Shown here: positions 6,611-6,864 of the stretch, one piece after another
How positions within the stretch are numbered: position 1 is the first letter of the stretch
How the letters are laid out: each line of letters starts with the position of its first letter
Assembly: GCA_034434635.1 (NCBI GenBank)
Contig: DAOTYX010000130.1
Location: 1-36,349 of the forward strand
Source: Anaerolineae bacterium
GTDB lineage: Bacteria; Chloroflexota; Anaerolineae; B4-G1; DUEL01
Direction: 5' to 3'
Length of the DNA: 36,349 nt
Program-made: the position numbers and the translations under genes
The notes under the pieces: generated by a model
Database searches by the model: none
What the model saw: the letters and a program-made list of their open reading frames with translations, nothing else
What the model was told of the DNA's origin: nothing

Positions 6611-6702
6611 CTCCTCCCGGTAGAATGGTCTGCTTCGGCCTGTCGTAGCCACAAGAGGGCTTCTCCACGGCTATAGATGTGCCACATCCGTTCTTTGAAG
6701 CC

Positions 6703-6864
6703 TCAATCGTCGTCGAAAAAGGCCAGGATGTCTATGTCACTGCCAGCGCGAGCCTGGCCGCGGGCAAGGGAACCGAAGAGGATGAGCCGCCGCGCGCCCA
6801 TCTCCCGCAATTGGGCGACGACCTGCTCCAGGGCCTCCTCCAGCCGCGTCTTGTCCGCTTTCAC
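6703..6864 (-). CDS. Small ORF (53 aa) encoding a minimal nucleotidyltransferase (MNT / Pol-beta superfamily) motif; a possible truncated toxin-antitoxin MNT remnant.
   Basis: Hand translation of the minus strand gives MKADKTRLEEALEQVVAQLREMGARRLILFGSLARGQARAGSDIDILAFFDDD*. The hG[GS]x9DhDh signature (LFGSLARGQARAGSDIDIL) is present. The GTG start overlaps the atpG TGA stop (GTGA). The ORF is absent from the supplied track because it is under 60 aa. Confidence 0.4.
   Translation of the reverse strand: MKADKTRLEEALEQVVAQLREMGARRLILFGSLARGQARAGSDIDILAFFDDD

What the first reader, a model, noticed from the sequence alone, without database searches (positions are those of the whole stretch)
6611..6864. 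Minimal nucleotidyltransferase (MNT-like) mini-ORF inserted between atpG and atpD, translationally coupled to atpG
A 53-aa ORF lies inside the otherwise universally conserved atpA-atpG-atpD-atpC block.
- Sequence: MKADKTRLEEALEQVVAQLREMGARRLILFGSLARGQARAGSDIDILAFFDDD.
- It has a perfect hG[GS]x9DhDh Pol-beta nucleotidyltransferase signature.
- Its GTG start overlaps the atpG TGA stop (GTGA).
- It uses native GC-rich codons.
- It ends about 40 residues short of a full MNT antitoxin, and no HEPN partner follows; 92 nt of non-coding sequence lie before atpD.
- It could be a decayed MNT/HEPN toxin-antitoxin remnant captured in the atp operon, or a functional mini-protein co-translated with gamma.

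Either way, an insertion at this position is unusual, and it was invisible to the 60-aa ORF track.
Basis: partly seen in the sequence, partly recalled or inferred. Interest (0 to 1): 0.6.

Follow-up and report, generated by a model that had tools for sequence, protein, structure and literature searches.

The report
Decayed MNT-HEPN module in atp operon
The 53-codon reading frame between the ATP synthase gamma and beta genes is the broken front half of a two-gene MNT-HEPN (toxin-antitoxin-like) module that related Anaerolineae bacteria still carry intact at the same spot, so it is a recent pseudogene and not a new mini-protein.

Summary
A 53-codon ORF (6703-6864, minus strand) starts at a GTG inside GTGA with the atpG stop. 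It matches Pfam NTP_transf_2 (E=1e-8), but only the first 43 of 93 profile positions.

The ORF is a pseudogene. Related Anaerolineae (Chloroflexota) contigs carry intact atpG-MNT(97-118 aa)-HEPN(133-138 aa)-atpD on one strand, with gaps of 27 nt or less. These form at least five sequence-distinct lineages, including three NCBI MAGs.

Against the closest intact relative (L002, 86.5% nt identity) the window shows three lesions:
- a CGA(Arg54)-to-TGA nonsense change;
- a ~130-nt deletion joining MNT codon 65 to HEPN codon 7;
- a ~357-nt deletion removing the rest of HEPN.

A 37-nt HEPN 5' fragment survives at 6629-6665. Five full-spacer metagenome contigs share all three lesions; a sixth, partial contig shows the TGA. 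This rules out an assembly error.

Two other relatives (L010 clearly, L009 weakly) keep different HEPN tail scraps in the same spacer, and three keep nothing. MNT/HEPN identities track atp identities. This fits one old insertion, vertical inheritance and repeated loss.

The module is "Class II" HEPN/MNT (PF05168+PF01909), whose toxin-antitoxin status is unproven. The pseudogene itself is ordinary; the long-lived residence of the module inside the F1 gene block is the mildly notable part.

The parts
6861..7772 (-). atpG (F1 gamma, 303 aa); its TGA stop at 6861-6863 overlaps the remnant's GTG.
   Evidence: ORF list. PF00231 is recorded on the identical gene in L086-L090. 74-77% identity to atpG of Anaerolineae MAGs.
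6703..6864 (-). 53-codon ORF: the translatable N-terminal stub of the MNT pseudogene (helix, GS-x10-DxD).
   Evidence: 83-86% aa identity to the full-length 105-aa MNT P0001.
6703..6705 (-). Premature stop TGA, which replaces CGA (Arg54) of the intact relatives.
   Evidence: Protein alignment. DNA alignment to L002 (GATCGAGGC against GATTGAGGC).
6669..6864 (-). The whole MNT-derived segment (codons 1-65), colinear with L002 149-344.
   Evidence: blastn segment A, 86.5% identity, E=6e-97.
6666..6668 (-). Junction of deletion 1 (3 unmatched bases, GTG). About 130 nt of L002 (345-474), covering the MNT 3' half and the HEPN start, are missing.
6629..6665 (-). HEPN 5' fragment (codons 7-19, [12 protein letters not shown]), fused in frame to the MNT stub.
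   Evidence: blastn segment B, 34 of 37 nt identical to L002 475-511, E=3e-11. L002 HEPN translation.
6621..6628 (-). Junction of deletion 2 (8 unmatched bases). About 357 nt of L002 (512-868), the rest of HEPN, are missing.
6611..6618 (-). atpD Shine-Dalgarno GGGAGGAG, retained from the HEPN-atpD spacer.
   Evidence: Sequence; colinear with L002 869 onward.
5207..6610 (-). atpD (F1 beta); start at ATG 6610 or, more likely, 6607.
   Evidence: Gene calls of 466 aa on L086-L090. The L002 ATG aligns with the second ATG.

Best explanation
The atpG-atpD spacer of this Anaerolineae genome holds the wreck of a two-gene Class II MNT-HEPN module (PF01909 minimal nucleotidyltransferase plus PF05168 HEPN). 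An ancestor of this clade acquired the module between atpG and atpD, and it has since been inherited with the atp operon.

Shown in this lineage: the module was inactivated by a CGA-to-TGA nonsense change at MNT codon 54 and by two deletions. These removed the MNT C-terminal half and all but 13 codons of HEPN.

Inferred: the remnant is still transcribed inside the atp mRNA. Ribosomes finishing atpG probably re-initiate at the overlapping GTG and make a 53-residue stub, then stop at the TGA. atpD is then initiated independently from its own strong Shine-Dalgarno. The stub has no catalytic or antitoxin role. It persists because the decay is recent, and because further deletion is limited by the atpG stop on one side and the atpD ribosome-binding site on the other.
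For: - Homologues: full-length homologues of 105-118 aa exist, and the stop aligns with a conserved Arg. Homology continues 11 codons past the stop in the same frame.
- Intact arrangement elsewhere: atpG-MNT-HEPN-atpD occurs in L002, L003, L005, L093-L095, L096 and L099-L101, with gene spacings of -11 to +27 nt. L093 shares the wider synteny M42 peptidase-atpA-atpG-...-atpD-atpC-mreB-acetyltransferase with the window.
- Deletion map: three colinear blastn segments against L002 define the two deletions.
- Not an error: five full-spacer contigs from other samples (L086-L090) carry the same TGA and both deletions, and a sixth, 513-bp contig (L001) shares the TGA before it diverges upstream of the deletions.
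- Independent decay in relatives: the L010 spacer keeps the last ~12 HEPN codons (33-nt match, z=13.8, 0 of 200 shuffles). L009 has a 12-nt colinear match (z=4.8). L006-L008 keep nothing.
- Vertical inheritance: the atpG+atpD tree places intact, remnant and empty states in one clade, and MNT/HEPN identities track atp identities.
- Selection on intact copies: dN/dS is 0.11-0.15 for MNT and 0.04-0.06 for HEPN.
- No separate signals: no promoter, terminator, Rfam family or unusually stable RNA fold in the spacer.
Against: - dN/dS of the remnant against L002 is 0.17, no higher than for intact copies. The sequence therefore shows no measurable relaxation yet. This fits recent decay but would also fit continued constraint on the stub.
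- The stub keeps a coupled start and a G-rich stretch upstream. It is identical or nearly identical in six other assemblies.
- Expression was not measured.
- The toxin-antitoxin nature of Class II modules is itself unproven (PMC7641770), so 'antitoxin remnant' is a label by homology.
Confidence: 0.9

Rival explanations
1. The 53-residue peptide is a functional, selected mini-protein. It could be a domesticated N-terminal MNT fragment that binds nucleotide, binds another HEPN paralogue, or tunes gamma/beta translation.
For: - Coupled GTGA start.
- Intact GS-x10-DxD motif.
- Low dN/dS against L002, 0.17.
- Present unchanged or nearly so in six other assemblies.
Against: - It ends at a single-base nonsense change inside conserved coding sequence.
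- It lacks the third acidic strand and about half of the fold: Pfam positions 2-43 of 93 only.
- Its partner gene is deleted.
- Sister lineages have erased the module completely.
- No comparable truncated form is found outside this one 90%-identity cluster.
- Between the two haplotypes, 4 of the 7 changes in the ORF are non-synonymous.
Confidence: 0.06
2. The premature stop and the short spacer are assembly or sequencing artefacts, and the organism really has an intact MNT-HEPN pair.
For: The window comes from a metagenome assembly. One short contig (L001) diverges inside the remnant.
Against: Five independent contigs of 1.7-37 kb from different JGI and ENA samples carry the same TGA and both deletions. 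They fall into two haplotypes that differ at other positions.
Confidence: 0.01
3. The TGA is recoded (selenocysteine or read-through), giving an 85-residue MNT-N::HEPN-N fusion whose stop overlaps the atpD start (ATGA).
For: The frame stays open after the TGA for 31 codons and ends in TGA overlapping the atpD ATG. Both ends would then be translationally coupled.
Against: - Homologues have Arg (CGA), not Cys or Sec, at this codon.
- atpG itself stops at TGA.
- The region downstream of the stop has no significant structure, z=-1.5, and no Rfam hit.
- The fusion would still lack the MNT core and nearly all of HEPN.
- An in-frame junction is expected one time in three by chance.
Confidence: 0.02
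4. The modules at this junction arose by repeated independent insertions (a hotspot), not by one ancestral insertion followed by losses. The window's copy would then be a separately acquired and then decayed insert.
For: - The same HEPN subfamily occurs in unrelated contexts: L004, L091, L092, L097.
- L096 has gained a second module (UPF0175+DUF3368) at the same junction.
- A Patescibacterium has a MazE-like/PIN pair there.
Against: - MNT and HEPN identities among atp-embedded copies parallel atp identities.
- All atp-embedded HEPNs are closer to each other (64-91%) than L002's HEPN is to the sampled copies outside atp operons (36-65%).
- Remnants in L010 and L009 lie in the same clade.
Confidence: 0.1

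Closest known systems
Class II HEPN/MNT modules (PF05168 HEPN + PF01909 MNT) as defined by Yao et al. 2020 (PMC7641770); HEPN-T family of Anantharaman et al. 2013 (PMC3710099)
   Same: - The intact relatives have MNT upstream with GS-x10-DxD.
- The HEPN gene starts 11 nt before the MNT stop.
- HEPN matches PF05168 at E=4e-26. It lacks RX4H but keeps the conserved YY..ARYP tyrosines.
- The window's stub is the N-terminal half of such an MNT.
   Different: - In the window the module is broken: nonsense codon, MNT C-terminal half lost, HEPN reduced to 13 codons.
- The location inside the F1 gene block of the atp operon was not found described (literature searches).
- Class II pairs have not been validated as toxin-antitoxin systems.
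HepT/MntA type VII toxin-antitoxin (Class I; Shewanella SO_3166/SO_3165)
   Same: The MNT fold and the GS-x10-DxD motif that MntA uses to AMPylate its toxin. NCBIfam MntA_antitoxin matches the stub at E=8e-7.
   Different: - The score of 28.9 is below the family cutoff of 60.
- The partner in relatives is PF05168, not DUF86/PF01934, and has no RX4HXY motif.
- It is therefore not a member of the HepT/MntA equivalog.
Thermus thermophilus putative minimal nucleotidyltransferase, PDB 1WOT
   Same: The closest solved structure by sequence to the full-length relative P0001. The alignment covers the helix, the GS motif and the DxD region.
   Different: The match is weak (E=2e-4) and covers residues 9-56 only.
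PADLOC candidate defence gene PDC-S09
   Same: The stub and P0001 match several PDC-S09 MNT-like profiles (E=1e-10 to 1e-12).
   Different: PDC-S09 is a candidate single-gene system. The HEPN partner matches no PADLOC profile, and nothing here was tested for defence.

Membership tests
Minimal nucleotidyltransferase (MNT; Pfam NTP_transf_2 PF01909 / Polbeta PF18765) | hG[GS] glycine-serine loop followed by Dh[DE]h (GS-x10-DxD) | tested here: met
   LFGSLARGQARAGSDIDIL, residues 29-47. Pfam E=1e-8, above the gathering score.
Minimal nucleotidyltransferase (MNT; Pfam NTP_transf_2 PF01909 / Polbeta PF18765) | Third conserved acidic residue on the next beta-strand (hDh), and a complete alpha/beta core of about 95-140 aa | tested here: not met
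   Only profile positions 2-43 of 93 are present. The conserved DVDVLAY/DVDILAY strand of all full-length relatives is deleted.
Minimal nucleotidyltransferase (MNT; Pfam NTP_transf_2 PF01909 / Polbeta PF18765) | Uninterrupted reading frame | tested here: not met
   TGA replaces Arg54 (CGA).
Class II HEPN/MNT two-gene module (PF05168 + PF01909) | Adjacent HEPN (PF05168) gene immediately downstream of MNT on the same strand | tested here: not met
   In the window only 37 nt of the HEPN 5' end remain. The feature is met in relatives L002, L003, L005, L093, L096 and L099.
Class II HEPN/MNT two-gene module (PF05168 + PF01909) | Descent from such a module (homology of both parts, colinear order) | tested here: met
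   The MNT segment is 86.5% and the HEPN fragment 92% identical to L002, in the same order and at the same atpG-atpD junction.
HepT/MntA type VII toxin-antitoxin (Class I) | NCBIfam MntA_antitoxin equivalog score at or above the cutoff, and a partner with the RX4HXY RNase motif (DUF86/PF01934) | tested here: not met
   28.9 bits against a cutoff of 60. HEPN partners in relatives are PF05168 and have ARYPNALEE with no His.
Toxin-antitoxin system (functional definition) | The toxin arrests growth and the cognate antitoxin neutralises it | not testable with these tools
PMC7641770 states that Class II pairs have not been validated.

The most novel reading that the evidence does not exclude
In one Anaerolineae clade a Class II MNT-HEPN module has lived for a long time inside the F1 part of the atp operon. 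It is co-transcribed, and in some genomes start/stop-overlapped, with atpG and atpD, and it evolves under purifying selection. It might therefore be more than a selfish passenger. One possibility is an ATP-dependent nucleotidyltransferase/HEPN pair whose dosage is tied to ATP synthase expression and whose activity reports the cell's ATP supply. The window would then show one of several lineages that have recently dispensed with it. A weaker version of this reading is that the atpG-atpD junction is a preferred safe harbour for toxin-antitoxin-like modules in several phyla.
Probability: 0.1. Interest if true: 0.7.

Novelty: new member of a known kind. Interest (0 to 1): 0.35.

Why it matters
For annotation, the 53-aa 'predicted nucleotidyltransferase' called in several assemblies should be flagged as a pseudogene fragment.

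For biology, the locus gives a clean natural series at one fixed and easily recognised junction: intact, partly deleted, scrap and clean. It shows how a toxin-antitoxin-like pair nested in an essential operon is inherited vertically for a long time and then lost through nonsense mutation and internal deletions that spare the neighbours' stop codon and ribosome-binding site. Losing both genes with no obvious cost also bears on whether Class II HEPN/MNT pairs are addictive toxin-antitoxin systems at all.

Tried and rejected
- A global MAFFT alignment of the window against L002 could not place the deletions. It was replaced by local blastn.
- The metagenome-contig scan with the MNT alignment returned only two loci, both outside atp operons. 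It added nothing to the census.
- tblastn of MNT and HEPN against 80 GTDB species loci found no intact insert. Remnants were found only by aligning spacers directly.
- Promoter/terminator scan, Rfam search and RNA folding of the spacer found nothing. An RNA element is rejected.
- The divergent tail of L001 has two copies of GTCTCATWAAGTCGTATC and starts with TGT, which suggested a transposon end. It was searched in the window, in all loci and in viral contigs without a match. It remains unresolved: a mobile-element insertion in a sub-population or a chimeric contig.
- dN/dS between the two haplotypes was computed. It is not usable as a test of constraint, because the differences form a 218-nt cluster that looks like a recombination tract.
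- Selenocysteine or read-through was considered and rejected (see rival explanations).
- Three literature searches found no description of a toxin-antitoxin or MNT-HEPN module inside an atp operon. Absence from this library is not proof that none exists.

Full report
**1. What is in the sequence**

On the minus strand the window carries atpA (7777-9438), atpG (6861-7772), a 254-nt spacer, atpD (5207-6610 or 6607) and atpC (4761-5198).
- Its GTG shares GTGA with the atpG stop.
- It matches Pfam NTP_transf_2 at E=1e-8 (35.8 bits, cutoff 21) and Polbeta at E=9e-7. Only profile positions 2-43 of 93 are covered.
- NCBIfam MntA_antitoxin matches at E=8e-7 but far below its cutoff.
- The motif is GS-x10-DxD.
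- GC3 of the ORF is 0.81, like the atp genes at 0.82-0.88.

**2. The stop is a nonsense mutation and the frame continues**

Translating straight through the TGA keeps the same frame open for 31 more codons. The frame ends at a TGA that overlaps the atpD ATG. A search of 5.8 billion proteins with this read-through sequence found four full-length MNTs of 105-118 aa, plus the 53-aa cluster itself.
- In the best hit (P0001, 105 aa) the window's stop aligns with Arg54.
- The next eleven residues, [11 protein letters not shown], are identical.
- After that the similarity ends.

**3. What relatives have at this position**

The contigs that encode those MNTs show the context. L002, L003 and L005 read atpG - MNT - HEPN (PF05168) - atpD on one strand.

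Searching with the L002 HEPN and fetching contigs added three groups:
- L093-L095 (NCBI GCA_011388675.1 plus two ENA assemblies). These share the full synteny of the window: M42 peptidase-atpA-atpG-MNT-HEPN-atpD-atpC-mreB-acetyltransferase.
- L099-L101 (GCA_036172315.1).
- L096 (GCA_017880035.1). Here a second pair, UPF0175+DUF3368, sits in front of MNT-HEPN at the same junction.

In all of them the HEPN start overlaps the MNT end by 11 nt. The junctions to atpG and atpD are overlaps or gaps of 27 nt or less, except for the 214-nt gap behind the extra pair in L096. I infer that the module is part of the atp transcription unit.

**4. Anatomy of the decay**

Local alignment to L002, the nearest intact relative (86.5% nt identity), gives three colinear pieces.

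| Window (minus strand) | L002 | Content |
|---|---|---|
| 6950-6669 | 63-344 | atpG 3' end plus MNT codons 1-65 |
| 6665-6629 | 475-511 | HEPN codons 7-19, 34 of 37 nt identical, E=3e-11 |
| 6620-6500 | 869-986 | atpD ribosome-binding site and start |

Between these pieces lie 3 and 8 unmatched bases. The window lineage has therefore suffered:
- CGA to TGA at MNT codon 54;
- a ~130-nt deletion joining the middle of MNT to the HEPN 5' end;
- a ~357-nt deletion of the rest of HEPN.

The lost MNT part includes the conserved DVDVLAY strand. This strand carries the third acidic residue of the polymerase-beta-type active site, according to established knowledge of the superfamily. It is conserved in every full-length relative.

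**5. It is not an artefact**

The exact 53-aa product is called on contigs from several independent JGI and ENA samples.
- Alignment of the whole spacer in five of them (L086-L090) shows the same TGA and both deletions.
- They fall into two haplotypes. Fourteen of the 18 differences in 6.1 kb are clustered at 6752-6969, across the atpG 3' end and the first two thirds of the stub. This looks like a recombination tract.

**6. Evolutionary setting**

- Taxon: atpG places the organism among uncultured Anaerolineae. The nearest GTDB species representatives are 74-77% identical.
- Census: none of 80 representative loci has an intact MNT or HEPN between atpG and atpD.
- Scraps in relatives: the 99-nt spacer of L010 ends with EMAVQALQFVQQRFENT*, clearly the HEPN C-terminus (33-nt match to L002, z=13.8, 0 of 200 shuffles). 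L009 has a 12-nt exact, colinear match to the L005 HEPN end (z=4.8). L006-L008 have 23-30-nt spacers with nothing left.
- Tree: a neighbour-joining tree of atpG plus the first ~190 residues of atpD puts intact (L093, L099, L096, L005), remnant (window, L010, perhaps L009) and empty (L006-L008) states in one clade. The next clades out (L011-L017) are all empty.
- Inheritance: MNT and HEPN identities parallel atp identities. For L005/L096/L099, HEPN is 80-91% and atp 92-95% identical. For the other pairs both are roughly 64-81%.
- Mobility: HEPN copies of the same subfamily at 65% identity or less sit in unrelated contexts.

The simplest reading is one old insertion, vertical inheritance and several independent losses. 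I give about 0.1 to repeated insertion at a hotspot instead.

**7. Selection**

Intact copies are constrained. dN/dS is 0.11-0.15 for MNT codons 12-65, 0.11 for full MNT and 0.06 for HEPN in L096 against L099, and 0.04 for HEPN in L002 against L005.

The window stub against L002 gives 0.17 (dS about 0.3-0.4), which is indistinguishable from the intact baseline. Had the window branch been neutral since the split, about 20 extra non-synonymous changes would be expected in these 54 codons. About 6.5 are seen in total. The inactivation is therefore recent relative to the split from L002. The same number cannot exclude continued constraint on the stub, and this is the main residual uncertainty.

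**8. How it most likely works now**

- Shown: the lesions, the missing catalytic strand, the missing partner, and the retained atpD Shine-Dalgarno (GGGAGGAG, 6618-6611).
- Also shown: the spacer has no sigma-70-like promoter, no intrinsic terminator and no Rfam family, and its RNA fold is not unusual (z=-1.5).
- Inferred: the remnant is transcribed within the atp mRNA, and the stub is probably translated by coupling to atpG and released at the TGA. atpD initiates on its own site. The stub has no function.

**9. Comparison with known systems**

The parent module is a Class II HEPN/MNT pair in the sense of Yao et al. 2020 (PMC7641770). That means a PF01909 MNT with GS-x10-DxD next to a PF05168 HEPN that lacks the RX4H RNase motif but keeps conserved tyrosines. 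In Anantharaman et al. 2013 (PMC3710099) this HEPN type is HEPN-T.

The module is not a HepT/MntA (Class I, type VII) member, for two reasons:
- the NCBIfam score is below its cutoff;
- the partner family and motif differ.

Yao et al. state that Class II pairs have not been validated as toxin-antitoxin systems, so 'antitoxin' is a label by homology only. The closest solved structure by sequence is 1WOT, and that match is weak. PADLOC lists MNT-like PDC-S09 candidate profiles that match.

**10. Novelty and verdict**

The window feature is an ordinary pseudogene of a known family, so I class it as a new member of a known kind. What is less ordinary is the home of the intact module: inside the gamma-beta junction of the F1 genes across a clade. 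Three full-text searches found no description of this.

The junction is not uniquely inviolate elsewhere either:
- a Moraniibacteriota genome (L064) has a MazE-like/PIN pair between atpG and atpD;
- a Brocadiaceae contig (L082) has a Bro-N protein there;
- several other Patescibacteria have unexplained 0.5-0.8-kb gaps.

Interest is 0.35. Confidence in the decayed-module explanation is about 0.9.

Noticed in passing
window 6752-6969 (minus strand; atpG 3' end and first two thirds of the stub), compared with L088/L089/L090: Two haplotypes of this species differ at 18 positions in 6.1 kb. Fourteen of them fall in this 218-nt stretch (about 6% against about 0.07% elsewhere). This looks like a short recombination tract from a more distant allele. 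The donor is not L002-like.
   Followed up: partly
L001 373-513 (ENA ERZ27247228, 513-bp contig); corresponds to window ~6683: The contig is identical to the window through atpG's 3' end and the stub up to ...GAACGGATGTG. It then switches to unrelated sequence that starts with TGT and holds two copies of GTCTCATWAAGTCGTATC 35 nt apart. This could be a transposon end inserted in the remnant in a sub-population, or a chimeric contig. No match was found in the window, in other loci or in viral contigs.
   Followed up: partly
L096 2262-3003 (NCBI GCA_017880035.1, JAEDZT010001420.1): A second toxin-antitoxin-like pair, UPF0175 (PF03683) plus DUF3368 (PF11848), lies between atpG and the MNT-HEPN pair. 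This genome therefore has four extra genes between atpG and atpD. Its close relative L099 has only MNT-HEPN.
   Followed up: partly
L010 4913-5015 (DAOTYW010000129.1) and L009 3830-3903 (DQUX01000244.1): The atpG-atpD spacers of these species representatives keep scraps of the HEPN 3' end. In L010 it is EMAVQALQFVQQRFENT*. In L009 it is a 12-nt match. These are decay products independent of the one in the window.
   Followed up: yes
L064 ~4954-6531 (Candidatus Moraniibacteriota, JALVDV010000001.1): A 1.5-kb insert between atpG and atpD encodes a MazE/AbrB-type antitoxin-like protein (PF04014) and a PIN-domain protein (PF01850), plus a 91-aa ORF. This is a toxin-antitoxin-like pair at the same junction in an unrelated phylum.
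   Followed up: partly
L070, L076, L081, L083, L084, L078 (Patescibacteria) and L082 (Brocadiaceae), atpG-atpD gaps: These loci have gaps of 0.35-0.8 kb between atpG and atpD, with no convincing same-strand ORF in most. L082 has a Bro-N domain protein (PF02498) there, and its sequence contains masked N runs. The content of these gaps was not explained.
   Followed up: partly
window 4761-4786 (minus strand): The longest mreB ORF (3722-4786) overlaps the atpC end by 26 nt. In L093 mreB starts 67 nt after atpC and is 335 aa. The true mreB start in the window is probably further downstream than the listed GTG.
   Followed up: no
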